The notes below the pieces were generated by a model. The model had not been told where the DNA came from and did no database searches. It saw nothing but the letters and a program-made list of their open reading frames with translations. From Candidatus Woesearchaeota archaeon (GTDB lineage Archaea > Nanobdellota > Nanobdellia > SCGC-AAA011-G17 > GW2011-AR18): 64,000 nucleotides of DNA. The stretch covers positions 2,198 through 66,197 of the forward strand of contig JAGVZM010000002.1 in NCBI GenBank assembly GCA_018302545.1, read 5' to 3'. Positions 1 through 61,530 of this stretch are shown piece after piece; position 1 is the stretch's first letter, and each line of letters begins with the position of its first letter. The position numbers and the translations under genes were made by a program.

Positions 1-155
1 CTCTCAGCATCTAGTTCAGTATTATAAATAGAACTTCCTACATCATCCACTCTATAACTATCTAATACAAAACCAACATAAGCTCCTGCAAGAAAAATAA
101 AGATAGCTATTAAAAAAGCAGTTAGCAGCATAATTTTTCTAAATACTTTCACCAT
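1..155 (-). CDS. partial ORF (N-terminal part, runs off the window): hypothetical membrane/secreted protein
   Basis: ATG at 155..153, open to position 1; hydrophobic N-terminus MVKVFRKIMLLTAFLIAIFIFLAG. Confidence 0.3.
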   Translation of the reverse strand, partial: MVKVFRKIMLLTAFLIAIFIFLAGAYVGFVLDSYRVDDVGSSIYNTELDAE

Positions 156-1393
156 TTCTTTTCAGCTCCACTAAACTCTAAAATAAAAGCATGCAACCAT
201 TGCATACTTCTAAACAAGGGATATATAAAGATGTAAATAAGGGAAGGTATATAAAACTTCCATTTCTCGCCAACATATTTATGTGCTGCTAAGTATAGAT
301 ATAACCCTAAGAACAAAACAACTAAACTTGGAAAAAGTAAATTCCAGTTTAAATTTAAAATAAATTGAAGGAGTGTAGGAAAATCAAATTCAAGAAAAGC
401 AAGTTTCATTATATAAATCTTAAAAGCTAAATCAAGAAATAAAGTAACTATATGATAACCAAACAGACCAATAGAAAAGAATACACAAAGTAAAACAAAA
501 ACTTCTAAAGGAATTTGAAACATGCCTAATAGACCATAGTTTTTATTTAATATCATTTTTTTGTATTTTAAATTGTTATACATAAATCCTCTAAACCATC
601 TAACTCTCTGCATCCACATTGTTTTTATTTTAGTAGGCACTTGAGTTCTAAAATTGCCATGTTCACACATTACAATCCTATAATCATTATATCTTAGTCT
701 CATAGCAATCTCAAAGTCTTCAGTTAAATTGCCAACATCAAAGCCGCCAATCTTTTTTAAAATACTAGTTCTAAATAAACTAAGTGCATTAGTAATATGT
801 AGAGTATCTGCAGTTCCTAATAATTTCCTAACAAAAGCAGCCATTACATATTCCAAGTTTTGCATCCTAGCAATGAAATTTCCTTTATTCTTGATTAAAG
901 TAATAGCAACAACAGCCGCAACATCAGAATTATTTTTATCATAAAAATATTTAACCATATTTTTTAATAAATTTTTATCAGAAACAGAATCAGCATCATA
1001 AACCCAAAAATATTCTCCAGTTGCTTCCTTGAGAGCAGTATTCAATGCTCCGCCTTTGCCTAAATTTTGATTGTGTTTAATTAGTTTAATTTTAAACTTA
1101 GACTTAGAAATAAAATTATTAAGAACTTTAATAGTATTATCCTTACTTTTATCATCAACAACAATAACCTCTAAATTATTAGTAGGATAATCCTGAGAAA
1201 AAATGGATTTTAAAGTTTGAATAACAGCTTTTTCCTCATTCCAAACAGGAACAGCAACAGTAATATTAGGAAAGGTTTTGAGATCTGGGAGTTTCTTATC
1301 ATAATATTTAGTAGCAAAGTTAAGTATAATCCATAGTATAGCTACAAAAGTAGATATAAATGAGATAATCCAAATATAAATTTCAAATAGCAT
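149..1393 (-). CDS. membrane-bound family 2 glycosyltransferase (processive GT2, cellulose-synthase-like)
   Basis: N-terminal TM, GT2 motifs VAVPVWNEE...VVDDKSKDNT, DAD, QRVRWFRG; C-terminal TM helices. Confidence 0.75.
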   Translation of the reverse strand: MLFEIYIWIISFISTFVAILWIILNFATKYYDKKLPDLKTFPNITVAVPVWNEEKAVIQTLKSIFSQDYPTNNLEVIVVDDKSKDNTIKVLNNFISKSKFKIKLIKHNQNLGKGGALNTALKEATGEYFWVYDADSVSDKNLLKNMVKYFYDKNNSDVAAVVAITLIKNKGNFIARMQNLEYVMAAFVRKLLGTADTLHITNALSLFRTSILKKIGGFDVGNLTEDFEIAMRLRYNDYRIVMCEHGNFRTQVPTKIKTMWMQRVRWFRGFMYNNLKYKKMILNKNYGLLGMFQIPLEVFVLLCVFFSIGLFGYHIVTLFLDLAFKIYIMKLAFLEFDFPTLLQFILNLNWNLLFPSLVVLFLGLYLYLAAHKYVGEKWKFYIPSLIYIFIYPLFRSMQWLHAFILEFSGAEKKW

Positions 1394-2842
1394 TTATTGA
1401 ACGCTCCTATTAATACTCCACAATCCAACATCATCATTAACAACTAAGGGTATAAAGTAATTACCCCCATAAGTTAACAAAAACATAAATTTTTCATTAT
1501 TGTTATTAAAATATCTTATTTTAGTTTTTTTATCAAACAAAATATAAGTCACATTATAATTATTAAAATAACTTAAAGTTTTATTTAAATCAGTAGAGTT
1601 CATTATGACTTCAAAGTCATTAATTCTCTGGTCTATATCTGAAACATAAAGAGCATTTTCATCTAAAAAAGTTTTCTTGTTAGCATATTTTATAAAATCA
1701 GCATTACGATAGCTTGAAAAAACAACATCTTGATTGTCATGTGATTTCAAAAGCTTAATAGCTTGAAAATAGTTTTGATCAGGAGAAAAATTAGGAAGTT
1801 CATTATAATAAACTAAAAATGAAAATAAAATACCACAAATCAATACTAACAAAGTCATAAATTTAAATATGCCAGATTTCCAATTGTGTTTAAATAACAT
1901 GGAAAAAGCTAAAGCTGCAAAAAAAGCCATTAAAAAGGAGAGATAAAACAAGATATAATGATTATAAAAAGCAAATAACAACAAAAAGAACAAAACAAGA
2001 TAAATAAAAATAAATCTATAAAATCTATTATAGTAAAAATAAATTCCGATCAAAGCTAAAACAAAAATGAAAAGACTAAACCCATATTTTCCGCCAAATT
2101 CAAATATGATAAAAGAGATTAAGTTTACAAAGGAGAATTCTCTTAAACCCAACAAAAAGTCAGGAGGTAAACCAATAAATAAAAGTCTATAAAATTGTAG
2201 AATAAAAGAAATTAAAAAAAAAGTTAATAGTAAAGAAAATTCCTTATAACTCTTCTTTGTATAAGCATAAAAAAGAAAACTAAGTAAAACAAGGAATAAT
2301 CCAAATATAGAAAAGAAACCACTAAGTAAAAAAGATAAATAACTTAAAATTTTTTTGTCAGTTTTAAATAAATAAAAGCCTAAAATAATAAAAAAAACAG
2401 AAGCAAGATACTTAGTAGATACAGAAAAAAAATATAAAAAAGTAGGAGAGACAATTAAAATTAAAGATGCCATAAACTTTAATTCTGGCTTTACTTTATC
2501 TACTAAAAGATAAAATAAAACAAATGACAAAATACCTAAGAAAAAAGGTAAAATCCTGACTAAAAGTCCTGGACTAAAGCTAATTAGATAATACCAACCA
2601 AATTCTTCTAAGTTGACTCTGCCCCCATAACTAAGTTCATCAAAATTATTAATAGCATTTAAATTAGAGTAATCAGCCAGTCTTAAACTATTATAACTAT
2701 CCCCATCTAGAAGCAATCCATTTGTAGAGTAAAACCTAATATAATGAGATAAGCCTAGTAAAAATATACATAAAACAAGGAGGATCCAAAAATACTTCCT
2801 AGCAGTGAACAAAGTAATACCTCCCTTCTCTAAAAGATTCAA
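1394..2842 (-). CDS. polytopic membrane protein, GT-C fold glycosyltransferase-like (PMT/ArnT-type)
   Basis: more than 10 predicted TM helices, DGDSY acidic motif in first loop, soluble C-terminal domain. Confidence 0.45.
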   Translation of the reverse strand: MNLLEKGGITLFTARKYFWILLVLCIFLLGLSHYIRFYSTNGLLLDGDSYNSLRLADYSNLNAINNFDELSYGGRVNLEEFGWYYLISFSPGLLVRILPFFLGILSFVLFYLLVDKVKPELKFMASLILIVSPTFLYFFSVSTKYLASVFFIILGFYLFKTDKKILSYLSFLLSGFFSIFGLFLVLLSFLFYAYTKKSYKEFSLLLTFFLISFILQFYRLLFIGLPPDFLLGLREFSFVNLISFIIFEFGGKYGFSLFIFVLALIGIYFYYNRFYRFIFIYLVLFFLLLFAFYNHYILFYLSFLMAFFAALAFSMLFKHNWKSGIFKFMTLLVLICGILFSFLVYYNELPNFSPDQNYFQAIKLLKSHDNQDVVFSSYRNADFIKYANKKTFLDENALYVSDIDQRINDFEVIMNSTDLNKTLSYFNNYNVTYILFDKKTKIRYFNNNNEKFMFLLTYGGNYFIPLVVNDDVGLWSINRSVQ

Positions 2843-4307
2843 AACAGAGGTTATTCTTAGTATAACTCAAACCATTTATACCATAGAATTCTTTGGTTTC
2901 ATCAGAAACATAAATAAAATTAATATTATACTTCCTCAATAAATCTAAAGCTAATGCTTCACTAGGAGTAGTATAAATAAGTTCTATATCCCTATATCTA
3001 ACAACTGGATCAGGAGCAACTGCAAAATTAGTGTCTATCACATTTTTCCTCATGCCATAATAATTTATTAGATTACCCTCTTCAAAATTTCCCAAGATAA
3101 CATGCTCAGGTAGAGTATTAATACTTAACCACTTAATTTGCTTTACTTTATTATCTGTTAATTGTCGAGAATTATTAGCAGAATCATAAGAAGGAATAAA
3201 AGATAAAAAAATAAAAGAGAATATTAAAACAACTACGAATACTGTTCTCAATCTAATAAACTTAAAATTACTAAAATAGTCATAAACCAAAGTAAAAGTA
3301 GAAGAAGAAAACACACATAGAACTAAACCTAAAAAAATTAAACCAATAGATATTGATAAAAATCTAAAAAAAAGCAATATTAAAACTGAAAGACCAAAAG
3401 AAGCAAGTAAATAAGCAAGTTTCTTCTTTTCTCTTATAACACTAACATAAACCCCAAAAGCTCCCAAAACTAGAGGTAAAAGACCCAATCCAAAGATTAA
3501 ATCTGTAGAGGAAAATTGTCTAAAGAGATCATTAAAAATATTAGAAGGGATATTATTCCAGAGCAAGCCTAATCCATGTTGCAAAATCATTTTTTTATAT
3601 ATTAAAAGTTGTAATAATAAGATTAGAAAAGAAGAGAAGAAAATTGCTTCCTTTTTAATCCTAGTGGAAGATAAAGCTCCTCCAGATAATAAAAAAAGAT
3701 ACAAAAAACCCATAAAAACAAATAGTAGAGAAGAAGGATGTAATAAAGGCAACAAAAAGGAACCTAGAACAAAAAACCAAAGATATTTCTTATCATCCAA
3801 TCTAGTCAAACTATATACCATAAGTAATAAAAGTGGCAGAATAAATGTGTAAATAGAAAGATTATTTAGAGTTTCATAAAATATTAAAGGATAAAACCCA
3901 AAAAGCAAAGAAGAGAATAAAGCACCAAAAGAATTACCGCTTATATCTTTAGATACTAAATAAACCACAAAAACAGTTAAAGAAATTGCTAACTCAGGAA
4001 TCAACTTCAACATAAAAACAGAACCAAAACTAAATAACGCCATTAAAATATGAAATAAATGAGGATAGATTACATCAATACCACCATAACTCAAAGGATC
4101 ATAAATCATTACAGTTCCTTTTTCTAATATGTGTTCAATATACTTCAAGTGAAAATAAGCATCATCGGTATTGAAATATTCTACCTGAAAAGCAAAGTAC
4201 ATTCTAAATGCTAAAATAAATAAAAAGATAAGTAAAAGTAAAATATGTTCAACTTTTATCTTCTTCATTAGTTTTCTCCCCAGAGGATATATTTTCACTA
4301 TTAACAT
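2799..4307 (-). CDS. polytopic membrane protein, GT-C fold glycosyltransferase-like (dolichyl-phosphate-sugar dependent)
   Basis: about 12 TM helices, NTDDAYFHLKY DD motif in first extracytoplasmic loop, C-terminal soluble domain; real start may be the internal Met (MKKIKVEH). Confidence 0.45.
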   Translation of the reverse strand: MLIVKIYPLGRKLMKKIKVEHILLLLIFLFILAFRMYFAFQVEYFNTDDAYFHLKYIEHILEKGTVMIYDPLSYGGIDVIYPHLFHILMALFSFGSVFMLKLIPELAISLTVFVVYLVSKDISGNSFGALFSSLLFGFYPLIFYETLNNLSIYTFILPLLLLMVYSLTRLDDKKYLWFFVLGSFLLPLLHPSSLLFVFMGFLYLFLLSGGALSSTRIKKEAIFFSSFLILLLQLLIYKKMILQHGLGLLWNNIPSNIFNDLFRQFSSTDLIFGLGLLPLVLGAFGVYVSVIREKKKLAYLLASFGLSVLILLFFRFLSISIGLIFLGLVLCVFSSSTFTLVYDYFSNFKFIRLRTVFVVVLIFSFIFLSFIPSYDSANNSRQLTDNKVKQIKWLSINTLPEHVILGNFEEGNLINYYGMRKNVIDTNFAVAPDPVVRYRDIELIYTTPSEALALDLLRKYNINFIYVSDETKEFYGINGLSYTKNNLCFESFREGRYYFVHC

Positions 4308-4812
4308 TTTCTGTTTTTTCTTCCAATACTTTATCCATTTTAATTTTTAATTGATTTTCAACTATGTCAAAATAATCAAAAAATTTGCTAGTTAATTTAA
4401 TTATTTTAGATCTACCAAAAGGTTCAGAAACAATAAAGTCTAATTCTTTCAAAAGTTTTATATGATCATAAGCTCCATTTCCCCTTATTTTTATTATTTC
4501 GCTTTGTAATGCTGGATTCTTATATGCAATAACTGCTAAAGTCTCTTGTGTAGCCCCATCAAATTCAGCTTCTTGTAATAATGATTGAGTCAGGTGAAGA
4601 TATTCTTTTCTTATATTCAATTTCCATTTATCTACCTGTTGGGTTATCTCCAAGGAACAATTCTTATTTTTGTAATCTTTCACTAATTCAAACAAAACTT
4701 CTTTCAAATAACCAACACTAGCAATTCCAGTCATCTTACTAATCTCATCTAATCCTATAAATCTACCAGTAGTAAACAAGATAGCCTCTACTTTATTTTT
4801 ATCTTCCTGCAT
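4249..4812 (-). CDS. scpB: segregation and condensation protein B (ScpB)-like
   Basis: ILFTTGRFIGLDEI and ETLAVIAYKNPALQSEIIKIRGNGAYDHIKLLKELDFI match ScpB winged-helix repeats. Confidence 0.55.
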   Translation of the reverse strand: MQEDKNKVEAILFTTGRFIGLDEISKMTGIASVGYLKEVLFELVKDYKNKNCSLEITQQVDKWKLNIRKEYLHLTQSLLQEAEFDGATQETLAVIAYKNPALQSEIIKIRGNGAYDHIKLLKELDFIVSEPFGRSKIIKLTSKFFDYFDIVENQLKIKMDKVLEEKTENVNSENISSGEKTNEEDKS

Positions 4813-4859: not shown

Positions 4860-5255
4860 CTACCTAAAAGAATTAGGAGAACAAACTCTAAAGACAACAC
4901 CCTCCTCTCCAACAGACCTAACAAAGATATTAATTCCATTAATATTTTCAACACTATTAACATCTATATTCCCTAAAACCCCATTAATACCAAATGTAAC
5001 AACATCTGAAGTAAAGTCCTGCAAAATTATTGTTCTACCAACATTAGGAGCATTTAATGCAGAATTTCTTAAATTAGATCTAAAATCAACCCCATCACAA
5101 AGTTCAAAATCACTAGAATTGTTTTCACTTCCAACATCCTTAACAACATTTCCTGTAATAAGATCTCCACTTAAAATTTTATTTCCATAGAACCCTATAC
5201 TAAAAACTAATAAAACAATTACAATTCCAAAAACAGACCAAACCACTTTTTGCAT
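4860..5255 (-). CDS. hypothetical secreted/membrane-anchored protein
   Basis: N-terminal TM/signal MQKVVWSVFGIVIVLLVFSIGF; no recognisable domain. Confidence 0.35.
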   Translation of the reverse strand: MQKVVWSVFGIVIVLLVFSIGFYGNKILSGDLITGNVVKDVGSENNSSDFELCDGVDFRSNLRNSALNAPNVGRTIILQDFTSDVVTFGINGVLGNIDVNSVENINGINIFVRSVGEEGVVFRVCSPNSFR

Positions 5256-5291: not shown

Positions 5292-6389
5292 CTAAAGTTC
5301 AACAGAATACCTTAGTATAGCTGCAACACCACCAAGTTCTTTTAATTGGGATCCTTCTTTAGTATCAAGACTAATAATAAATACATTAGTTCCCGTTTCA
5401 TTAGCTTTTTCTTCATATTCCTCAAGTTTAGAAAAACTCTCACTTAATAATAACTTATCAACTGCCCCATATTCTAAAGATTTTAAAACATCGGCAGGAC
5501 CATAAACCGCCTTATCTGAATTTTTAGATATTAGGGTAAAAAATTCATTAACAATCTTTTTTTCCTTTACAACTTCAGCTTCAGATAAAACATCCTGAGA
5601 TCTTTCAACTAATTCATTTAAACCTTCTTCATCAGTATAAGAGATATCCTTAATTGCTAAAACTTTCTTTCTTAATTCAGCATGAAGATGATTAGAATTA
5701 AAAAAAGTTTCTTTTGTTGGACCCGGACCACCTATTAATATACCCTTAAGATCCTTCCCTATTGCAGCAAATTCAATATTCGCAACATCAGAAACTCTCT
5801 TATAAAACTCATTAGCTGCCTCTTCTCTCAATCTTGCATACCTTTGTTGGGACCAGCCACCAACTTTCAATTTTCCAGGAACAGTAGAACTAAAATCTCT
5901 AATTACTTGTATGCTTTTCCCTTTTAATAAACCAAGTGTAGCTTCTCTATTATCCAAAACAAGCAATCCGTATATTTCATTTATTTGAATCATAGAATCC
6001 AAAGGATCTAAAATAAAAGTTTGATCACATCTATACATCCTAATGTTAACAGGAACAGGAGGCTCAACACTCCAGACTTGTATATCTTGTTTTCCTTCCT
6101 GCTCTGAAACATTACCAGAAAAAGCAGCCAATCCATTAGAAGGAGTAACCTTAAATAATCTCAAATGTCTTATCATCCTTTCTAAAGCATCTTGTACATT
6201 CTGTCTAGTAGTCTTGTCTTTTATATTAGAAGCAGTTCCTTGTTCCTGTGCCAAATGTTGAATTATTTTATTAAGATCATATCCTATAGGAATATAAACT
6301 GTAATAAGCTCAGTATGTCTAGCTCTATATTTTTTAAGTTCATTAACAAATTTCCTTAATTTAAATTGATTTTTTGTGTCCATATTCAA
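5292..6389 (-). CDS. prf1: peptide chain release factor aRF1 (eRF1 family), with GGW in place of GGQ and NIKD in place of NIKS
   Basis: strong colinear similarity to aRF1: ELITVYIP, TASNIKDKTTRQNV (NIKS region), EIYGLLVLDNREATLGLLKGK, VPGKLKVGGWSQQRYARLREEA (GGQ region). Confidence 0.8.
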   Translation of the reverse strand: MNMDTKNQFKLRKFVNELKKYRARHTELITVYIPIGYDLNKIIQHLAQEQGTASNIKDKTTRQNVQDALERMIRHLRLFKVTPSNGLAAFSGNVSEQEGKQDIQVWSVEPPVPVNIRMYRCDQTFILDPLDSMIQINEIYGLLVLDNREATLGLLKGKSIQVIRDFSSTVPGKLKVGGWSQQRYARLREEAANEFYKRVSDVANIEFAAIGKDLKGILIGGPGPTKETFFNSNHLHAELRKKVLAIKDISYTDEEGLNELVERSQDVLSEAEVVKEKKIVNEFFTLISKNSDKAVYGPADVLKSLEYGAVDKLLLSESFSKLEEYEEKANETGTNVFIISLDTKEGSQLKELGGVAAILRYSVEL

Positions 6390-6403: not shown

Positions 6404-8785
6404 CTAAAACTCTATTTTAAGTTCCTTTCCATATTTTATTTCTTTGGCTTGCGTAACTGCCTTTAAGTCTTTATCTAATAATTTAAGACTTGTATAACAA
6501 TTCAAAAGTTTTAAAGGTTCCTTTAAAGATTTACCTTTAGAAGACTTCTCCTTCCTAACAAAACTAACTACTTCTACAAATTCATTCCCAATTTTCTCAG
6601 ATTTCTTATCAACTAAATTTTTATCAAAAATAGGCCAGGTACTAATATGCAAACTTTTATCCTTCTCTTTATCCTTAAATATGTCTTGATATAACTGTTC
6701 TGTAATGTAAGGCATAATAGGAGCAAATAATTTTAAGATATTAAGTAAGCAAGTATATAAAGTAAATAAAGAACTATCACGTTCTTTACTCTTACCTTCA
6801 CTATAAATCCTATATTTAACAAACTCTAAGTAATTATCACAAAAATCTTTCCAAAAGAATATATCAATCGCAGCTTTAGCTTTACTATATTCATAAACTT
6901 CAAATGCTTGAGTGCAAATTTGAATAGTATTATTCAATTTATTCAAGATCCATTTATCTATAATTTCTAACTCAACTTTTTTCAATTTGTAATTATCCAA
7001 ATGTTGTCTTGCAAAATTAAAAGAGTTCCATAATTTAGTAACTGTTCTTTGTCCAGTACTCAATTCCTTCTCCAAGTATCTCAAATCATCTCCTAATTTA
7101 GAACCTGCTGCCCAAAATCTTAAAGCATCTGCACCGTATTTATCTAAAACTTCTGCAGGTTCTATAGCATTACCTTTACTCTTGTGCATAGCTTGCCCTT
7201 TAGGATCCAAAACATGCCCAGAAATAACTATATCTTTCCAAGGAAGTTTGTTATGATGATATAAACCTTTAACAATTGTATAAAAAGCCCAGGTTCTTAT
7301 TATATCATGTGCCTGAGGTCTTAAACTACAAGGATACATTTTATCAAAATCAAAATCATAAACATTATCCTTTACCCAATTTAAAATAATTTGAGGAGTT
7401 ACACTAGATGTAGCCCAAGTATCCATTACATCCTTTTCTGCTTCAAATTCATTATTACCACATTTACATTTAGTCTTAGGCTTATCATTTAAAGGATCAA
7501 CAGGAAGTTGTTTTTCATCAGCAATAATAACTTCAGAACAGTTCTTACAATACCAAACCGGAAAAGGAACTCCAAAATGTCTCTGCCTAGATATACACCA
7601 GTCCCATTGCAAACCTTGAATCCAATGCTCATATCTTAACCTCATAAATTGGGGATACCAATTTATTTTTTTACCTTCATCAATAAACTTCTTTTTATTA
7701 TCCAAAACTTTAATGAACCATTGTTTTGTACTTAAGAATTCTATTTCTGTTCCGCATCTTTCATGTACATTAACAACTTGTTTAAGAGGTTCTTGTTTAA
7801 CTAAAACTCCTGCCTCTTTCCAATCTTCTAAAACTAGTTCTCTAGCCTCTTTTACACTCATACCTTTATACTTTCCTGCTTTATCATTCAATTTTCCATC
7901 TTTATCAAGGATATGTATAACCTCTAATTCTGGATGTTTCCTTACAAATTGAAGATCATGAATATCTCCATAAGGACACCAATATACTGCACCTGTTCCA
8001 AATTCAATTTTAGAGAAGTCATCAGCTATTATTGGAACCTGAATATTACTAATAGGAATTGTTGCTTTCTTACCAATTAAATTCTTATATCTTTTATCCT
8101 CTGGATGAACAGAAATAGCAATACAAGCCATCATAAGTTCAGGCCTTGTAGTAGCAAAAGTTATGTTGCTTCCCCCCTCAACTTCAACTTTTACATAATT
8201 TAATTTAGATTCTCTTTCTTTGTCTTCCAAATCAGCTTGAGCTATAGCTGTTTGACAATGAACACACCACATAGTAGCGTCCTCACTTTGATAAACTAAT
8301 TTTTTCTTGAATAGATCAATGAAAGATTTTTGAGAAGTCCTTATGCAATGCTCATCTATCGTAGAATAAGTTTTAGAAAAATCACAGCTCATACCCACTA
8401 ATTTCCAATCATTAATAAAATCAGGTTTAATTTCCTCAATAGTCTTTTCACATAATTCTACAAATTCATGTCTACTCATTTTTGTAGACCTAACGTTCTT
8501 TAATTTCTCAACTAATTTCTCTGTAGGTAAACCATTATCATCTGTACCAAAAGGAAAAAAAACATTATCTCCTTTCATTCTATGATATCTAACAACAATA
8601 TCTTGTTGTGTATAACTAAAAGCATGTCCTAAATGCATCTTACCAGATACAGTAGGAGGAGGAGTATCTACAACATAAGGTTTAGCTTTAGATTTTTTAT
8701 TAAATACATAAACCTTTTCTTTTTCCCAAAATTCTCTCCATTTCTTTTCTACATCCTTAAAAACATATTTATTGTTACTATTCAT
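6404..8785 (-). CDS. valS: valine--tRNA ligase (ValRS), class I
   Basis: VVDTPPPTVSGKMHLGHAFSYT (HIGH), KMSKSKGN-like MHKSKGN; start taken at MNSNNKYVF (longest ORF extends to 8866). Confidence 0.8.
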   Translation of the reverse strand: MNSNNKYVFKDVEKKWREFWEKEKVYVFNKKSKAKPYVVDTPPPTVSGKMHLGHAFSYTQQDIVVRYHRMKGDNVFFPFGTDDNGLPTEKLVEKLKNVRSTKMSRHEFVELCEKTIEEIKPDFINDWKLVGMSCDFSKTYSTIDEHCIRTSQKSFIDLFKKKLVYQSEDATMWCVHCQTAIAQADLEDKERESKLNYVKVEVEGGSNITFATTRPELMMACIAISVHPEDKRYKNLIGKKATIPISNIQVPIIADDFSKIEFGTGAVYWCPYGDIHDLQFVRKHPELEVIHILDKDGKLNDKAGKYKGMSVKEARELVLEDWKEAGVLVKQEPLKQVVNVHERCGTEIEFLSTKQWFIKVLDNKKKFIDEGKKINWYPQFMRLRYEHWIQGLQWDWCISRQRHFGVPFPVWYCKNCSEVIIADEKQLPVDPLNDKPKTKCKCGNNEFEAEKDVMDTWATSSVTPQIILNWVKDNVYDFDFDKMYPCSLRPQAHDIIRTWAFYTIVKGLYHHNKLPWKDIVISGHVLDPKGQAMHKSKGNAIEPAEVLDKYGADALRFWAAGSKLGDDLRYLEKELSTGQRTVTKLWNSFNFARQHLDNYKLKKVELEIIDKWILNKLNNTIQICTQAFEVYEYSKAKAAIDIFFWKDFCDNYLEFVKYRIYSEGKSKERDSSLFTLYTCLLNILKLFAPIMPYITEQLYQDIFKDKEKDKSLHISTWPIFDKNLVDKKSEKIGNEFVEVVSFVRKEKSSKGKSLKEPLKLLNCYTSLKLLDKDLKAVTQAKEIKYGKELKIEF

Positions 8786-16586: not shown

Positions 16587-16808
16587 ATGACAAAATGTAA
16601 ATATGAATATCAACAAATAGGATACATTAATTGCAATTATAATGGAGAATGTCCATATAAAAAATTAAATGAAGGAATTAGATGGGAATTAGATGAACTA
16701 GGTCCTACCTGTGAAAGACCTAAAGACCTAGAACCCCCAAAATTAGTAGATCTCCCAAATAAAAATAGAAGGCTAGAAACAATATTAGAATTTCTTCACC
16801 TAGTATAA
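16587..16808 (+). CDS. hypothetical small Cys-containing protein
   Basis: ORF with 4 Cys. Confidence 0.3.
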   Translation: MTKCKYEYQQIGYINCNYNGECPYKKLNEGIRWELDELGPTCERPKDLEPPKLVDLPNKNRRLETILEFLHLV

Positions 16809-18868
16809 ACAACATCATACTTAACTAGATTACATTCCTTATGACTCTTAACCTCAACGAAATTCTTCAAAATTTTCAAAACATCTTCAAGATTATATTT
16901 AATCTCCAATTTATCATCAAAACTAAAGGGAATAAATTCATTCTTTTCATAACAAACAAATTCATTCAATCTCAATAAGGTATTCAAATTATTATGAAAA
17001 ACAAACCCATTACCTTCCTGAACTAAAAACATTTTACTAACTAAACTAGTTAATAAACTCAAAGCTTTAGAAAATTGTATTCCTGTTTTAGCAAATACAT
17101 CTGCAGCAGTAAATTTTTTATTCATTTCTATACAAGTAGCTAAAACTTTTATCTCTTCTTTACTCAATTTATCAAAATCCAAGAAAAAATCAACACCAAC
17201 TCCCCTCTCAAGATCGTTAATTATCTGCCCATTATATAGATTAATTAAAAGATTAAACTCTTTATTATTTTTTATACAAGTAAACATATAACATGGGATC
17301 ATAATAGCTTTCAGACTCTCAATCTTCCTATTAACCAAACCTTTAATCTCTTCTTTAGTAACCTTAGGTCTTATCATACTAACAACTTCCTTACCAGTAT
17401 CATTCCATTGTCTTTTTTTAACTTCAACATCTTCAGAAATTAATTGTTTAGGTAATTCTTCATATTCAATATCCGCATCAACAAAAGTACCAACAACATC
17501 TATACTTTGACCACCATGCAAAGTCATTCTAGGTCTGACATCAATAAACAAAGGCATATCAGAAATACCCACAAGCATAGCAGTTCCTACATGCAAATTA
17601 ACAATTTCCTTCTCAGTCTCAGAAGTTATACCTTCAACAGAATTACTTATAGATTTAAGATCATTAGGATTAGTTATTTTTAATATAAATTGAGTACTAC
17701 ATTGTGAAAGAACAGTCTTGTCTAAACGTGCAGGTCTTTGTGTAACTAAAGCAACACCTAAACCGAACTTTCTACCTTCAGCTATTACTTGTCTTAAAAT
17801 AGGAGAGCTTTTAGCTTCTCCAAAATTTCTTTCAGGAGAATAATTATGAGCTTCCTCCACAACCAAAAAAAATGGTGGAATTTCCCCTCTTTTTCTAGCA
17901 CTAAATAAATCATTAACTAATTTATAAACAATAATCTCTTGCACTTCTTGGGGCACCCCTCTTAAATTAAGAATACTACATTTTCCAACTTTAACCAAAT
18001 CATTTGGAGTTGTACCATCAGATTCAGAAAATATATTTAAACTTTTCAAATAATCAATAACATTTATTAAAGTCCATTTAGCATTATTCTCTTCTGATTG
18101 TAAACTCAGCATTAATTGATCAAAATCATTTACTCTATTAATATTACTTAAAGCACCATACAATAAACCCATTTGACTGCCGCTTAATTTAGCAGGAAGC
18201 ATATGCATTAATTCACTTCCAGTCATGCCTTTTGTATTTAATTTTAAAAGTTTAGCTTCTGGATTTTTCTCAACATCAGGACTAAATTCTTGTATTTGTT
18301 TAAAATAACCTTTAGGTTCTAATCCGAATTTTTTTAACATCTCTCCATCTTTACTAGGATACTTTAAACTAGAATATTCTCCATGTGGATCAATAACAAC
18401 AATTGGAATTTTTCTTTCTAAAATTTCTTCTAAAAGAATAGAAACCAAATATGACTTTCCAGATCCAGACTTAGCTAATACTGCTAGATGTTTAGTAATT
18501 ATTTTATTTAAATCCAAATAAACTTTAATATTTTCTCTATCTTCTAACACCCCCACATAAGCACCCCTTTTACTTTCTTTTAAACCCAAAATATTCCTAA
18601 CTATCTCATCTTCAGCATATTCTATCTCTGCACCGGGTTCCAATGGTGTCCTTAAATTTCTTAAAATACCAAATTTATCTCTATAACCCATAATATTACA
18701 TTTAGCTTTAGTTTCTTCTTTCTCTTTTTGAACATCTACAATTTGAGCTAAAACAATATAATCTTCTTTATGTTTCGCTTTAACATACATAAATTTCTTA
18801 GCAGTATCCTCTACTAGAAAGTAAAATTCATTAGTACCACTTTTTCCAATTATATGTCCAAGGACCAT
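16796..18868 (-). CDS. herA: HerA-like (DUF87/FtsK-HerA superfamily) P-loop ATPase with about 200-aa C-terminal extension
   Basis: HAS-barrel-like N-terminus, Walker A AKSGSGKSYLVS, VIDPHGEY, Walker B VVEEAHNY, VALVTQRPARLDKTVLSQCSTQFILKITNPNDL. Confidence 0.7.
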   Translation of the reverse strand: MVLGHIIGKSGTNEFYFLVEDTAKKFMYVKAKHKEDYIVLAQIVDVQKEKEETKAKCNIMGYRDKFGILRNLRTPLEPGAEIEYAEDEIVRNILGLKESKRGAYVGVLEDRENIKVYLDLNKIITKHLAVLAKSGSGKSYLVSILLEEILERKIPIVVIDPHGEYSSLKYPSKDGEMLKKFGLEPKGYFKQIQEFSPDVEKNPEAKLLKLNTKGMTGSELMHMLPAKLSGSQMGLLYGALSNINRVNDFDQLMLSLQSEENNAKWTLINVIDYLKSLNIFSESDGTTPNDLVKVGKCSILNLRGVPQEVQEIIVYKLVNDLFSARKRGEIPPFFLVVEEAHNYSPERNFGEAKSSPILRQVIAEGRKFGLGVALVTQRPARLDKTVLSQCSTQFILKITNPNDLKSISNSVEGITSETEKEIVNLHVGTAMLVGISDMPLFIDVRPRMTLHGGQSIDVVGTFVDADIEYEELPKQLISEDVEVKKRQWNDTGKEVVSMIRPKVTKEEIKGLVNRKIESLKAIMIPCYMFTCIKNNKEFNLLINLYNGQIINDLERGVGVDFFLDFDKLSKEEIKVLATCIEMNKKFTAADVFAKTGIQFSKALSLLTSLVSKMFLVQEGNGFVFHNNLNTLLRLNEFVCYEKNEFIPFSFDDKLEIKYNLEDVLKILKNFVEVKSHKECNLVKYDVVYTR

Positions 18869-50289: not shown

Positions 50290-53200
50290 TTATTTACTCT
50301 TTTTTAAATCTTTTCTATTCCTAACATTAAAAATAGAGTAGTAAACAATCAATAAAACTAAAGCAAAAACTAAAGCCCCTATGCCCCAACCAGGAATATT
50401 GTTGGATTCAAAACCAGTAGCACAAACCCCTACAACTCTAAGCGGACTACTCAAACCCATTGCTGTAGCTTCTGCTTGAGTTATTTGATTGGTATTACAA
50501 ACATCAAAACCTAAAGCTGCAAAATTCTGACCACAAGTAACCTCAACATCATCCAACTCTCCATCATTATCTAAATCAATACAACTCTTAAGATTAACAA
50601 AGGACGTCCCAGGAATACCTCTTGTACAAGATTGGCAACAATTAGGTTCATTTATATTACCAGATAAAGAAAGATTACCATTACAAGCTTCACCAACACC
50701 GCATAAATATCCTCTAACACTACCGCAACTAACTGATCCTCCACCAGGACCTCTACCTATTATACTTCCACAATCGTTTCTACAAACACCATCACCACAA
50801 CAAGTCATTCCTCCAAGACAGTCATTATTATTAAGACACTGCCCTCCTATATTAGTAATTCCAGTATACAAAAGACAACTAGGACAAAAACTAGAATTAA
50901 ATCCTCCTAAAGCATTTTCTAGATCAGAAACAGGACCATAATGAATCCAACCTAAGTAAAGATAAGTAGCATTCATAGGAGCAACATAATTAAAATTTAT
51001 TATACCATTCAAAACAGGTATAGCTGTTAGAGTATCTAAAACTACAAGAGAATTAGTATCATTAAATCCAACAACAAAGCTAGTTGCATATCCTGAGAAT
51101 ATTGAAGAACCTCCTCCAAAAGTTGGATCTTCTCTTACACAACTACACTGCAAACTAACTGTTTGACCAACAACAGCTGTAACCATCATTCCTCTATTAG
51201 TTATTGCAGTTCCATTGTTCCAGACACATTCAGTTTGACAAGTATTAGAACAAATAGGATCAGGAAGAACTCTACAAATACCAGAATTCGCACCTTGTTG
51301 AAGAGCGCTACTTCCACTATTAAGATCACAATAAAATCCAGTGCCTAAGGAAGAACAATCATTATTACTACTACAAGTAACAACCTCACATAAACTAGTT
51401 GAAGGATTACAAACCTCAGTTAACCCACAGTCATTATTGGTATTACAAATTGAACAAGTTCCAGTTTGACAAATCAGACATTGCCCAACTAAAGGATTGC
51501 TAGTTCTTAAACATCTTGCATCAGGATAATTCTGACAAGTTCTACCAATCCTACAACCAGAAACACACTGACATCCATCACAAACTTCCCCAATACTACA
51601 ATCACTATCAAAAACACAACTAGCATTAACAATATGAAGTAATTGATCATTTCTATTTCCAGAATCACAAATTAAATTATTATTTGTAGAATTTAGAAAA
51701 TTAAAAGCATATCTTCCCTCATCTAAAAAAGCAGAAGATAAGAAACCAGTACTACCAAAACGAATTGGTGAATAATTACCATATGAAAAAGAGTTATTAT
51801 CTAAATCTCTTAAAGTAAAATTCAAAGATCCACTATTCAAAACATTTCCTTGTGAATCTAACAAACAAGAAAGATAACCTATAGCAGAGTCTCCCTCTTC
51901 AATCGTTAAATTATATCCATTACCGCTATGTAAAATACGGCCGTCAGTCCAATTACAAGAAGGATTACAATTTAAACCTAAATTAGGATCTCTAACTTGT
52001 AAAACCCCTCTAAAGTTATCTACAGAATTACAATTAGGATTAGGAGCACCACCAACTGTAAATATATAAACCCCAGGAGTAGAAGGAACAAAAGATCTAA
52101 TAGCATTACCATTAGTAACACCAATATTAGTATCCACTAAAACAGGGGCAGTTAAACTATTAAAGATATTATAAATCACCAAATTTGTATTTGTGCTATC
52201 TAACAAAGCACCAGAAGAATCTTGTAAACATGAAGCATTTATCATAACATTATCTCCTGTGTTTACACTAACAACATTAGGACCTGAAAGATAATTCCCT
52301 CCTTCCCACTGACAACCAAGATTACATGATACACTAGAAGCTGCCCTAAGAAGACAACTAACTTTATTTCCATCATTATTACAAGAGTAATTAGGATCAC
52401 AAAAATATTGTCCTAATTGATAAACATTTTTACAAGAAGCAAAATCACCAGAACAACTCCATCCATCAGAGACATAACCACAAAGACCTTGATGAGTACC
52501 ACCACCAATTTGAGGACTAACACAAATATTAGTAGAAATATCACAAGTTTCTCCAAGATTACAATCAGAGTTACTCAAACATCCAGGTCTACAAAGACCA
52601 CTAGAAAAATCACAAAAATTACCACTAGGACAAGTAAAACTTTGAGAAGAACAAGTAAAAGTACAAATACCAGGGCTAGCAACTCTTAAATCACAAGTTT
52701 CTCCAAGATTACAATTATTGTTGCTCAAACATCCAGGTCTACAAATTCCAGAAATAGTATCACAATAATTTCCCGAAGTACAAGGAGCATTTTGTCCACA
52801 ATTGTTAGGTGATTGAATTCCACAAATTCTAGTATTAGGATCACAATAATTAGAGCTACACTCTATGTTATTATTACATGAAAGTCCATCAGTTTTTTTA
52901 GGATCACACGAAACACCACTTCCTATATTACTGCAATAATAATTAGTATTACAAAAATATTCTGATGCAGTTAGACCCGAAACTTGTTTACAAGAAGTAA
53001 AATCCCCTGAACAATACCATCCATTTATAGTATCCCCACAATATCCAATATAATTAGTTATAGTAGTTCCACCACTTTGTTGTCCAATAACACAAGTATT
53101 AGTAGTAAAGTCACAAGTCTCACCAGTATCACAAAATTGATTTATTTGTCCACAAGGAGCTCCAGGTATAGCAAAAACAAGTTCAATAGAAAATAAACTA

Positions 53201-53304
53201 ATTAAAACAGCAATAAGTAAAAATAATCCCCTCTTTAACATATAAAATAGAACATCAAAATAGCTATTTAAAATTATTCTTTTAATCAGACCAGATAGAA
53301 ACAA
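50290..53304 (-). CDS. giant (1004 aa) cysteine-rich cell-surface protein with tandem Cys modules and C-terminal TM anchor
   Basis: N-terminal TM/signal; repeated CxSGNxCDxxSGxCRPGCLSNxxCNLGETCD modules; C-terminal GIGALVFALVLLIVYYSIF then basic tail. Confidence 0.55.
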   Translation of the reverse strand: MFLSGLIKRIILNSYFDVLFYMLKRGLFLLIAVLISLFSIELVFAIPGAPCGQINQFCDTGETCDFTTNTCVIGQQSGGTTITNYIGYCGDTINGWYCSGDFTSCKQVSGLTASEYFCNTNYYCSNIGSGVSCDPKKTDGLSCNNNIECSSNYCDPNTRICGIQSPNNCGQNAPCTSGNYCDTISGICRPGCLSNNNCNLGETCDLRVASPGICTFTCSSQSFTCPSGNFCDFSSGLCRPGCLSNSDCNLGETCDISTNICVSPQIGGGTHQGLCGYVSDGWSCSGDFASCKNVYQLGQYFCDPNYSCNNDGNKVSCLLRAASSVSCNLGCQWEGGNYLSGPNVVSVNTGDNVMINASCLQDSSGALLDSTNTNLVIYNIFNSLTAPVLVDTNIGVTNGNAIRSFVPSTPGVYIFTVGGAPNPNCNSVDNFRGVLQVRDPNLGLNCNPSCNWTDGRILHSGNGYNLTIEEGDSAIGYLSCLLDSQGNVLNSGSLNFTLRDLDNNSFSYGNYSPIRFGSTGFLSSAFLDEGRYAFNFLNSTNNNLICDSGNRNDQLLHIVNASCVFDSDCSIGEVCDGCQCVSGCRIGRTCQNYPDARCLRTSNPLVGQCLICQTGTCSICNTNNDCGLTEVCNPSTSLCEVVTCSSNNDCSSLGTGFYCDLNSGSSALQQGANSGICRVLPDPICSNTCQTECVWNNGTAITNRGMMVTAVVGQTVSLQCSCVREDPTFGGGSSIFSGYATSFVVGFNDTNSLVVLDTLTAIPVLNGIINFNYVAPMNATYLYLGWIHYGPVSDLENALGGFNSSFCPSCLLYTGITNIGGQCLNNNDCLGGMTCCGDGVCRNDCGSIIGRGPGGGSVSCGSVRGYLCGVGEACNGNLSLSGNINEPNCCQSCTRGIPGTSFVNLKSCIDLDNDGELDDVEVTCGQNFAALGFDVCNTNQITQAEATAMGLSSPLRVVGVCATGFESNNIPGWGIGALVFALVLLIVYYSIFNVRNRKDLKKSK
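52541..52745. repeat. intragenic direct repeat (two about 55-nt copies, about 90% identical, 52541..52595 and 52691..52745)
   Basis: TCACAAGTTTCTCCAAGATTACAAT...CTCAAACATCCAGGTCTACAAA occurs twice; encodes repeated Cys module. Confidence 0.5.
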
Positions 53305-61321: not shown

Positions 61322-61456
61322 CGCAAGTTCAAATCACAAGAGTTTCGCAATATTTAAGTAATACAAGCCATAAGTACAATATAACTAGGAGAAAACAAAA
61401 CAAGAGGGTGAAGCGTTATTCGTCAAAACCCACTCTCGAAAGTTCAGATCATAAAG

Positions 61457-61530
61457 TGGGCCCGATGTGATTTGAACACACGACCCCTACCTTATCAGAG
61501 TAGTGCTCCACCAAGCTGAGCTACGGGCCC
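61457..61530 (-). tRNA. tRNA-Ile (anticodon GAT), intron-less
   Basis: reverse complement GGGCCCG-TA-GCTC-AGCTTGGTG-GAGC-A-CTACT-CTGATAA-GGTAG-GGGTC-GTGTG-TTCAAAT-CACAT-CGGGCCC-A. Confidence 0.85.

What the first reader, a model, noticed from the sequence alone, without database searches (positions are those of the whole stretch)
5292..6389. aRF1 homologue with GGQ replaced by GGW and NIKS replaced by NIKD
The protein is colinear with archaeal/eukaryotic class-I release factor (ELITVYIP..., TASNIKDK..., ...VPGKLKVGGWSQQRYARLREE). The universally conserved peptidyl-tRNA hydrolysis motif GGQ reads GGW, and the stop-codon recognition motif NIKS reads NIKD. The GGW codons (plus-strand CCA at 5853..5855 = TGG on the minus strand) were read directly from the nucleotide sequence. 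A Q-to-W change should abolish the catalytic and methylated glutamine. Possible explanations: an inactive paralogue (Pelota/Dom34-like rescue factor derived from aRF1), altered termination in this lineage, or a sequencing or assembly error.
Basis: partly seen in the sequence, partly recalled or inferred. Interest (0 to 1): 0.7.

Follow-up and report, generated by a model that had tools for sequence, protein, structure and literature searches.

The report
Release factor with tryptophan replacing catalytic glutamine
The protein that ends translation in this tiny-genome archaeon has tryptophan where every studied organism has a supposedly universal catalytic glutamine, and the same swap is conserved across hundreds of related uncultured archaea, so it is a real natural variant and not an error.

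Summary
ORF 5292..6383(-) is a full-length archaeal class-I release factor. It scores 433 bits on the NCBIfam aRF1 model (cut-off 235) and falls below the Pelota cut-off. Its GGQ reads G-G-W, with TGG at 5855..5853.

It is not a sequencing error. Of 379 scored homologues, 175 lack the Gln: 149 W, 19 F, 4 M, 2 A, 1 S. These fall in about 16 lineages of Woesearchaeota/Nanoarchaeia, Aenigmatarchaeota and other DPANN-type MAGs.

GGX and GGQ versions occupy the same syntenic slot in two separate clades, so they are orthologues. The stop-codon-reading motifs (TASNIK, YxCxxxF) are invariant, evolutionary rates are normal, and all three stop codons are used.

The change is tightly coupled to Gln at +2 (GGxSQ; 144/175 against 67/199) and Tyr at +5. 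NIKD is simply the Woesearchaeal norm and is unrelated.

A homing intein sits exactly at GGX|S in many alleles.

Best reading: a working release factor with a remodelled catalytic loop. I could not check whole genomes for a second aRF1. No paper describing this was found.

The parts
5292..6383 (-). aRF1 coding sequence (363 aa from the ATG at 6383; the ORF extends to a TTG at 6389). All three eRF1 domains are present.
5853..5861 (-). GGT GGC TGG = G175 G176 W177 (363-aa numbering). This is the position of the universal GGQ; W replaces the catalytic, normally N5-methylated Gln.
5838..5852 (-). TCC CAA CAA AGG TAT = S(+1) Q(+2) Q(+3) R(+4) Y(+5). Q at +2 and Y at +5 co-vary with loss of the canonical Gln. 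In the AF2 model the helix starts at Q(+2). S(+1) is the intein +1 nucleophile in intein-bearing alleles.
6216..6227 (-). AAT ATA AAA GAC = NIKD, the NIKS-motif position. N-I-K is invariant; D is the lineage norm in Woesearchaeota.
6015..6035 (-). YRCDQTF = YxCxxxF stop-codon recognition motif, intact (Y117, C119, F123 invariant across GGQ and GGX homologues).
6404..8785 (-). Class-I aminoacyl-tRNA synthetase (ValRS-type) immediately upstream. It is a synteny anchor shared by GGQ and GG[WF] loci.
4249..4812 (-). ScpB downstream. It is a synteny anchor shared by related loci.

Best explanation
This is the organism's orthologous, working class-I release factor. The N domain still reads all three stop codons. 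The catalytic loop has been remodelled from GGQ-S-x to GG(W/F/M)-S-Q-x-R-Y.

Inferred mechanism, by step:
1. The two glycines and the backbone NH of the third residue still do the chemistry in the peptidyl-transferase centre. In bacterial RFs that backbone NH is the catalytic group.
2. The bulky hydrophobic side chain takes over the packing role normally played by the N5-methyl-glutamine side chain. This would make methylation by Mtq2 unnecessary.
3. The Gln two residues downstream lies at the first turn of helix alpha5, with Tyr one turn later on the same face. It probably supplies the amide formerly given by the canonical Gln. This is the same GGxSQ arrangement reported for the aVLRF1 and acVLRF1 branches of the superfamily.

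What is shown: identity as aRF1, orthology with GGQ forms, conservation, co-variation, and normal stop-codon usage. What is inferred: that it hydrolyses peptidyl-tRNA, and how.
For: - Family identity: TIGR03676 aRF1 432.7 bits against a cut-off of 234.7; pelota is below its cut-off. Best sequence and fold matches are aRF1/eRF1.
- Conservation of the variant: 175 of 379 homologues lack Q (W149, F19, M4, A2, S1). 114 of the 119 nearest neighbours of the Aenigmatarchaeota-type representative are GGW.
- Orthology: the order ValRS-aRF1-ScpB is shared by GGW, GGF and GGQ loci. The order KaiC-like ATPase / aRF1 / Nop5 is shared by GGQ locus L017 and GGW locus L018.
- Intact decoding motifs: T50 A51 N53 I54 K55, Y117 C119 F123, G175 G176 S178 R181 are invariant over GGQ and GGX proteins.
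- No rate acceleration: root-to-tip distance 0.278 against 0.252, and 0.293 against 0.297 in the full set.
- aRF1 is the best-conserved gene in its neighbourhood.
- All three stop codons are used: 38 TAA, 21 TGA, 10 TAG in the window, and likewise in related loci.
- Coupling: +2=Q in 144/175 non-Q against 67/199 GGQ; +2=Q or +3=N in 173/175; +5=Y in 150/175 against 41/199. At lineage level, 15 of 16 lineages have Q at +2, binomial p about 2e-6.
- A permissive background exists: GGQ proteins that already carry V(-3), Q(+2) and Y(+5), such as L004, P0049 and P0060.
- In the AF2 model the helix starts at Q(+2).
- Literature: the backbone amide of the Gln is the catalytic group (PMC6742477; PMC3467058); the Gln side chain has a packing role (PMC5799190); aVLRF1 and acVLRF1 carry GGxSQ (PMC6514570).
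Against: - No biochemical data exist for any of these proteins.
- Published work calls every GGQ residue essential in vivo (PMC9589212).
- I could not scan a whole genome for a second, canonical aRF1. The window genome is not in the genome collection.
- The Q(+2) rule is not absolute. A 30-member Aenigmatarchaeota subclade reads GGWSAN, one protein reads GGWSAS and one reads GGS..SAG. The 'relocated Gln' step is therefore weaker than the 'functional RF' step.
- Presence or absence of Mtq2 could not be tested.
- The tree is a distance (NJ) tree, so the count of about 16 origins is rough. Some small lineages may have acquired the tract by recombination.
Confidence: 0.6

Rival explanations
1. Specialised or inactive paralogue. 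The GGW protein binds stop codons or the A site without hydrolysing, as Pelota or the Balon hibernation factor do, and a second canonical GGQ aRF1 elsewhere in the genome performs termination.
For: Loss of the catalytic Gln is the signature of non-catalytic relatives such as Dom34 and most baeRF1 families (PMC6514570). Whole genomes could not be examined. The 64-kb window holds no second eRF1-family ORF, but it is only part of the genome.
Against: GGX and GGQ forms occupy the same syntenic slot in two clades. GGX lineages nest inside GGQ lineages at up to 85% identity. The stop-codon motifs are invariant and rates are normal. GGW is the overwhelming majority form in the Aenigmatarchaeota-type clade, at 114 of 119. 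Pelota and Balon matches are far weaker than aRF1 matches. These are small-genome DPANN organisms.
Confidence: 0.1
2. Stop-codon sensor without hydrolase activity, and the only aRF1 in the genome. It recognises the stop codon and triggers ABCE1-dependent subunit splitting. The peptide is then freed from peptidyl-tRNA by another enzyme, such as Pth2 or a VLRF1-like hydrolase.
For: The canonical catalytic side chain is absent. The N domain and the C domain are fully conserved.
Against: G-G, S(+1) and R(+4) stay invariant, and the loop length is unchanged. That makes little sense if the loop no longer enters the peptidyl-transferase centre. Non-catalytic relatives show poor conservation and variable loop length (PMC6514570). 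The substitutions are restricted to W, F and M with a coupled Q(+2)/Y(+5), which indicates selection on a specific loop function.
Confidence: 0.12
3. The by-product of intein traffic. A homing intein inserts exactly between GGX and S. Selection on the intein -1 residue, or on the homing site, together with co-conversion of the extein flanks, created and spread the GG[WF]SQxRY tract. The release factor merely tolerates it. This explains origin and spread and does not conflict with the best explanation for function.
For: Inteins (C...HN|S) sit at GGX|S in 74 of 379 homologues, in both GGQ and GGX hosts. Full-length LAGLIDADG inteins are present in GGW alleles L006 and L007. The small GGF lineages P0027 and P0037 show five parallel local changes (-9N, -5L, -3V, 0F, +5Y) toward the main-clade tract, while the rest of the protein groups with GGQ sisters.
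Against: Intein frequency is not higher in non-Q alleles (26/175) than in Q alleles (48/204). Synonymous sites are too saturated to demonstrate conversion. GGQ proteins that already carry V(-3), Q(+2) and Y(+5) suggest stepwise epistatic evolution. The window allele has no intein.
Confidence: 0.15
4. Sequencing or assembly error, or a pseudogene.
For: None beyond the prior expectation that GGQ is invariant.
Against: An identical protein occurs in 3 contigs or sources, and there are hundreds of independent homologues with W, F or M. The ORF is intact and the model is confident.
Confidence: 0.01

Closest known systems
Canonical archaeal/eukaryotic class-I release factor aRF1/eRF1 (NCBIfam TIGR03676; Pfam eRF1_1/2/3; e.g. 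PDB 4AF1, 3AGK, 1DT9)
   Same: Same three-domain architecture, same fold, 37% identity to 4AF1, the TASNIK and YxCxxxF decoding motifs, G-G, S(+1), R(+4), the same loop length, and the same genomic slot as GGQ orthologues.
   Different: The third residue of GGQ is W here, and F, M, A or S in relatives. In the literature that position is described as universally conserved, catalytic and N5-methylated (PMC6144793, PMC5799190, PMC9589212). Q(+2) and Y(+5) are coupled to the change. The protein is short (363 aa), lacking part of the C-domain insertion, like A. pernix aRF1.
aVLRF1 / acVLRF1 families of the aeRF1 superfamily (Burroughs and Aravind 2019, PMC6514570)
   Same: Reported to carry a GGxSQ motif, which is the arrangement seen here (GG-W-S-Q). 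They are predicted peptidyl-tRNA hydrolases with the Gln two residues after the GG+1 position.
   Different: aVLRF1 lacks the C-terminal Pelota-like domain and has an N-terminal coiled coil. acVLRF1 lacks the stop-codon domain. The Pfam acVLRF1 hit here (49.6 bits) is far weaker than the eRF1 domain hits. The window protein is an aRF1 orthologue, not a VLRF1.
Pelota/Dom34 (TIGR00111)
   Same: Homologous M and C domains; lacks the catalytic Gln.
   Different: Pelota has an Sm-like N domain without NIKS or YxCxxxF, and a poorly conserved loop. The window protein scores 120 bits against a cut-off of 177.65 and keeps all decoding motifs.
Balon / MSMEG_1130 / Rv2629 bacterial hibernation factors (aeRF1 homologues)
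   Same: aeRF1-fold A-site binders without a catalytic Gln.
   Different: Only weak similarity (NCBIfam 22-27 bits against cut-offs of 320-480; Foldseek E about 1e-19, TM about 0.3). They are bacterial and have no stop-codon motifs.
Engineered Gln mutants of RF1/RF2/eRF1 (Shaw and Green 2007; Mora et al. 2003; Frolova et al. 1999, as cited in PMC9589212 and PMC5799190)
   Same: Replacement of the GGQ glutamine by other residues.
   Different: Those are laboratory mutants, reported as lethal in vivo and as reducing efficiency or nucleophile specificity in vitro. Here the replacement is natural, fixed and conserved across deep lineages. My recollection that most Gln substitutions keep substantial in vitro hydrolysis could not be checked, because the paper is not held.

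Membership tests
aRF1/eRF1 class-I release factor | Equivalog-level HMM match (TIGR03676) above the curated cut-off | tested here: met
   432.7 bits against a cut-off of 234.7
aRF1/eRF1 class-I release factor | Three domains N/M/C (eRF1_1, eRF1_2, eRF1_3) and the eRF1 fold | tested here: met
   Pfam hits to all three domains. AF2 model pLDDT 86. Foldseek top hits are aRF1/eRF1, E 3e-38 to 1e-30.
aRF1/eRF1 class-I release factor | Stop-codon recognition motifs: NIKS-type (N-I-K-x) and YxCxxxF | tested here: met
   TASNIKD and YRCDQTF are present. N53 I54 K55 Y117 C119 F123 are invariant in 61 homologues. The fourth NIKS position varies naturally: NIKL in A. pernix (PMC3467058) and NIKD in 105 of the 120 nearest homologues.
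aRF1/eRF1 class-I release factor | GGQ peptidyl-tRNA hydrolysis motif with Gln at the third position | tested here: not met
   The motif reads GGW. G-G is retained and a Gln lies at +2. For this reason I file the protein as an orthologue-by-descent and a new variant, not as a standard member.
aRF1/eRF1 class-I release factor | Orthology: same genomic slot as canonical GGQ aRF1 in related genomes | tested here: met
   ValRS-aRF1-ScpB is shared with GGQ locus L004 and with P0033. A second clade shares ATPase/aRF1/Nop5.
aRF1/eRF1 class-I release factor | Sole class-I release factor of the genome | not testable with these tools
   There is no second eRF1-family ORF in the 64-kb window. The window genome is not in genome contigs.
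aRF1/eRF1 class-I release factor | Stop-codon-dependent peptide release, delivery by aEF1alpha, N5-methylation by Mtq2 | not testable with these tools
   These need biochemistry or proteomics.
Pelota/Dom34 | TIGR00111 above its cut-off; Sm-like N domain; no NIKS or YxCxxxF | tested here: not met
   120.4 bits against a cut-off of 177.65, matching only the M and C domains (residues 142-363). The decoding motifs are present.
aVLRF1/acVLRF1 | GGxSQ catalytic loop | tested here: met
   G-G-W-S-Q. The motif definition is taken from PMC6514570. The residue-level alignment to a VLRF1 sequence was not made.
aVLRF1/acVLRF1 | Domain architecture: no C-terminal Pelota-type domain plus a coiled coil (aVLRF1), or no stop-codon domain (acVLRF1) | tested here: not met
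   The window protein has eRF1_1 and eRF1_3. NF041024 acVLRF1 scores 43 bits against a cut-off of 125.

The most novel reading that the evidence does not exclude
Across a large share of DPANN archaeal diversity, the single release factor works without the 'universal' catalytic glutamine. A Trp, Phe or Met side chain replaces the N5-methyl-Gln, and the Mtq2 methyltransferase becomes dispensable.

Two further possibilities are not excluded:
- Archaeal aRF1 is delivered by aEF1alpha, the same GTPase that carries aminoacyl-tRNA. The hydrophobic residue at the loop tip may also mimic an aminoacyl group or A76 in the aEF1alpha pocket.
- The change may have been driven and spread by the homing intein that targets exactly this site.
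Probability: 0.45. Interest if true: 0.9.

Novelty: new variant of a known kind. Interest (0 to 1): 0.8.

Why it matters
GGQ is the textbook example of a motif conserved in all three domains of life. It evolved independently in bacterial and archaeo-eukaryotic release factors and has dedicated methyltransferases. The exact role of the glutamine side chain (catalysis, water selection or packing) has been debated for 25 years, using laboratory mutants that are lethal in vivo.

A natural, conserved and repeatedly evolved replacement by Trp, Phe or Met, with defined companion changes (Q at +2, Y at +5), gives three things:
- ready-made working variants to test what the side chain is for;
- a prediction that Mtq2 is lost or re-targeted in these lineages;
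- a warning that a missing GGQ does not by itself mean an inactive factor in annotation pipelines.

The intein at the very same peptide bond adds a rare case where a selfish element and the remodelling of an active site may be linked.

Tried and rejected
- Sequencing error: rejected, because the variant is conserved in hundreds of homologues.
- Pelota or Balon identity: rejected by HMM and fold scores.
- Stop-codon reassignment: rejected. TAA, TGA and TAG are all used, and coding density is 88% under the standard code.
- NIKD as a linked change: rejected, because it is the clade norm with GGQ too.
- A two-residue insertion ('WS') instead of a substitution: rejected, because the loop length between VPGK and ARLRE is identical.
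- Second eRF1-family gene in the window: none found with phmmer at E<=10.
- The genome-contig scan returned only 10 related loci and not the window genome, so a genome-wide paralogue search was impossible.
- DNA-level test for gene conversion around the motif: inconclusive. P0027 against P0033 shows 115 synonymous differences, with no local deficit.
- Protein-wide search for other recurrent co-varying positions: nothing directional beyond the loop.
- Candidate Mtq2 near aRF1 in L018 (13990-14679): it has no NPPY motif, so it is not Mtq2. One NCBIfam call failed on wrong coordinates.
- Shaw and Green 2007 could not be read because it is not held.
- Nine literature searches found no paper that mentions a non-GGQ aRF1, an aRF1 intein, or GGQ together with these DPANN taxa.

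Full report
**1. The observation**

The ORF at 5292..6389(-) is real. Relatives and the identical public protein P0001 (363 aa, named 'peptide chain release factor aRF-1 [Candidatus Woesearchaeota archaeon]') start at the ATG at 6383.

On the minus strand the codons are GGT GGC TGG TCC CAA CAA AGG TAT. NIKD is at 6227..6216.

HMMER alignments to solved aRF1 and eRF1 chains (4AF1, 3AGK, human eRF1) put the W exactly on the Q of GGQ, with no gap. It is therefore a substitution and not an indel.

**2. What the protein is**

- Pfam finds eRF1 domains 1, 2 and 3.
- The NCBIfam aRF1 equivalog TIGR03676 scores 432.7 bits (cut-off 234.7). Pelota scores 120.4, below its cut-off of 177.65, and only over the shared M and C domains.
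- An AlphaFold2 model built on a 61-sequence alignment has mean pLDDT 86.2. Its best Foldseek matches are aRF1 and eRF1 structures (4AF1 at 3e-38; TM 0.83 to pre-accommodation eRF1). Pelota and the Balon hibernation factors are many orders of magnitude weaker.

The 'Pelota-like' reading is therefore refuted.

**3. It is not an error, and it is not rare**

Among the 120 nearest homologues, 13 are GGW, 14 are GGF, 78 are GGQ, and 15 are about 500 aa long because an intein interrupts the motif.

A search of 1.84 billion representative proteins showed further non-Gln representatives at 40-55% identity: GGW, GGF, GGM, GGA and GGS.

I then searched with one of them (P0129, 49% identical to the window protein). 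This revealed a second large clade in which 114 of the 119 nearest homologues are GGW. Sources name these as Aenigmatarchaeota, Nanoarchaeota or Micrarchaeota MAGs and annotate them all as aRF1.

Over all 379 proteins that could be scored, the counts are Q 204, W 149, F 19, M 4, A 2 and S 1. A neighbour-joining tree with Fitch parsimony gives about 16 Q-to-non-Q transitions with a Q root. The number is rough, but the pattern is clearly polyphyletic. For example, the GGF protein P0027 is 85% identical to the GGQ protein P0033.

**4. Orthologue or paralogue?**

The window order is ValRS-type synthetase, then aRF1, then ScpB, then a 502-aa protein, then further genes ending in a GT2 glycosyltransferase. 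All ten related loci fetched from species-representative genomes share the core of this order. They carry GGW (L001), GGF (L002, L003, L005), GGQ (L004) or GGW with an intein (L006-L010). GGQ protein P0033 also has the synthetase upstream, and GGF protein P0037 has ScpB downstream.

In the second clade, GGQ locus L017 and GGW locus L018 both show a KaiC-like ATPase, aRF1 and Nop5 in the same arrangement. L011 shares the ATPase neighbour. L018 lies on a 664,793-bp contig.

So the Gln was replaced in situ in the orthologous gene, in at least two clades. Four further observations agree:
- aRF1 is the most conserved gene of its neighbourhood, for example 74% identity to L001 against 55% for the synthetase.
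- Root-to-tip distances of GGX and GGQ proteins are alike.
- The decoding residues (T50 A51 N53 I54 K55, Y117 C119 F123) and G175 G176 S178 R181 are invariant across both types.
- No second eRF1-family ORF exists in the 64-kb window.

I could not scan any whole genome. A second aRF1 elsewhere is therefore unlikely but not excluded.

**5. Stop codons**

In 69 non-overlapping ORFs of at least 100 aa in the window, the stops are TAA 38, TGA 21 and TAG 10. Coding density is 88% under the standard code. Related GGW, GGF and GGQ loci use the three codons in the same way. Nothing suggests reassignment.

NIKD is the Woesearchaeal norm, present in 105 of the 120 nearest homologues, most of which are GGQ. 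The Aenigmatarchaeota-type GGW proteins keep NIKS. A. pernix aRF1 naturally has NIKL (PMC3467058). NIKD is therefore unrelated to the GGW change.

**6. Anatomy of the remodelled loop**

Loss of the Gln is tightly coupled to two nearby residues.

| Feature | Non-Q proteins | GGQ proteins |
|---|---|---|
| Gln at +2 | 144/175 | 67/199 |
| Gln at +2, or Asn at +3 | 173/175 | 69/199 |
| Tyr at +5 | 150/175 | 41/199 |

The 'Asn at +3' cases are the GGWSAN subclade of Aenigmatarchaeota.

Counting lineages instead of sequences, 15 of 16 have Q at +2 (binomial p about 2e-6) and 11 of 16 have Y at +5. S(+1) and R(+4) never change, and the loop length is constant.

GGQ proteins that already carry V(-3), Q(+2) and Y(+5) exist, such as L004, P0049 and P0060. 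These look like a permissive background.

In the model the loop spans residues 166-178 with lower confidence. The long helix starts at Q179, which is the +2 position. Y182, at +5, lies one turn further on the same face.

Burroughs and Aravind report that the aVLRF1 and acVLRF1 branches of this superfamily carry a 'GGxSQ' motif (PMC6514570). That is exactly the arrangement here, in a protein that is otherwise a classical aRF1.

**7. Mechanism (inferred)**

The literature gives three relevant points:
- The backbone amide of the Gln is the catalytic group (PMC6742477; PMC3467058).
- The two glycines need glycine-only torsion angles, and the Gln side chain has a packing role that is stabilised by N5-methylation (PMC5799190).
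- GGQ mutations are lethal in vivo and lower efficiency or nucleophile specificity in vitro (PMC9589212). aRF1 is methylated by Mtq2 in Haloferax (PMC6144793).

The most economical reading is that GG(W/F/M) keeps the backbone chemistry. The large hydrophobic side chain fills the pocket normally filled by methyl-Gln. The nearby Gln (or Asn) supplies an amide where one is needed.

The restriction to W, F and M, the invariant G-G/S/R frame and the coupled changes argue for selection on a working loop, not for decay. The GGWSAN, GGWSAS and GGS variants show that Q(+2) is not strictly required. I therefore hold the 'relocated Gln' step with less confidence than 'functional release factor'.

**8. 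The intein**

In 74 of the 379 homologues an intein (Cys1 ... His-Asn) is inserted exactly between GGX and Ser(+1), in both GGQ and GGW/F/M hosts. L006 and L007 carry full-length versions with a LAGLIDADG endonuclease domain.

The replaced residue is therefore the intein's -1 residue, and Q(+2) and Y(+5) lie in the immediate C-extein.

Two small GGF lineages (P0027, and P0037 with P0044) differ from their GGQ sisters by five parallel changes confined to positions -9 to +5. These changes reproduce the main-clade tract. That is what co-conversion during intein homing would produce, but it could also be convergent compensation. Synonymous sites are too saturated to decide. Inteins are not enriched in non-Q alleles. 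I treat this as a possible route of origin and spread, not as an alternative function.

**9. Comparison with the known, and novelty**

By descent and architecture the protein is an aRF1. It fails one hallmark of the family, the Gln of GGQ, so I classify it as a new variant of a known kind. It is not a Pelota, Balon or VLRF1 member.

Nine full-text searches found no paper describing a natural non-GGQ aRF1, an aRF1 intein, or GGQ in connection with these DPANN phyla. Current papers still call the motif universally conserved. The library is incomplete, so prior description elsewhere cannot be excluded.

**10. Verdict**

This is a real, conserved and recurrently evolved replacement of the 'universal' catalytic glutamine in the orthologous release factor of many DPANN archaea. 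Interest is high. The main open point is the missing whole-genome check for a second aRF1, together with the absence of biochemistry.

Noticed in passing
L006:9998-12358, L007:9998-12355 (full-length); L008-L010 and P0009, P0012, P0015-P0022 etc. (mini): An intein is inserted exactly at GG(Q/W/F/M)|S of aRF1. The mini-inteins are about 140-150 aa. The versions in L006 and L007 are about 420 aa and carry a LAGLIDADG domain. Many of the 150 best-matching 50%-identity representative clusters are 500-970 aa for this reason. No paper on an aRF1 intein was found.
   Followed up: partly
P0129, P0272-P0277 and about 24 others (Aenigmatarchaeota-type clade): A subclade reads GGW-S-A-N-R-Y instead of GGW-S-Q-A-R-Y. 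The amide residue moves from +2 (Gln) to +3 (Asn). One protein (P0378) reads GGWSASRF and has no amide.
   Followed up: partly
P0027 (L013) against P0033 (L014); P0037 (L015) against P0041 (L016): Small GGF lineages share five local substitutions (-9N, -5L, -3V, 0F, +5Y) with the main GG[WF] clade, while the rest of the protein matches GGQ sisters. This is either a short mosaic or conversion tract, or convergence.
   Followed up: partly
window 4860..5255 (-): A 131-aa ORF with a hydrophobic N terminus and no Pfam family lies between aRF1 and ScpB. In several related loci (e.g. L001, L010) ScpB follows aRF1 almost directly, so this looks like a lineage-specific insertion.
   Followed up: no
window 6383..6389 (-): The mechanical ORF starts at a TTG (6389). 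Homologues and the public protein start at the ATG two codons later (6383). The upstream synthetase gene ends at 6404, so the two genes are about 20 bp apart and are probably co-transcribed.
   Followed up: partly
L007:7060-9450; also L003 and L004 synthetase genes: In L007 the class-I synthetase upstream of aRF1 is only 36% identical to the window's, although the L007 aRF1 exteins are 74-79% identical. Other close relatives have synthetases 55-78% identical. This may be a replacement of the synthetase gene in that genome.
   Followed up: no
window 50290..53304 (-) and 1394..2842 (-): Large ORFs of 1004 aa and 482 aa have no Pfam match at E<=0.001. The 482-aa protein is conserved next to the aRF1 cluster in most related loci.
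   Followed up: no
window 16796..18868 (-); 149..1393 (-); 61456..61530 (-): A HerA/DUF87-type ATPase, a family-2 glycosyltransferase, and a single tRNA-Ile(GAT). The tRNA is the only Rfam or ARAGORN hit in 64 kb. Window GC content is 29%.
   Followed up: no
L018:13990-14679 (-): A 229-aa SAM-methyltransferase (Pfam MTS and Methyltransf_* hits) lies 5 kb from a GGW aRF1 on the 665-kb contig. It has no NPPY motif, so it is not an Mtq2-type glutamine methyltransferase.
   Followed up: partly
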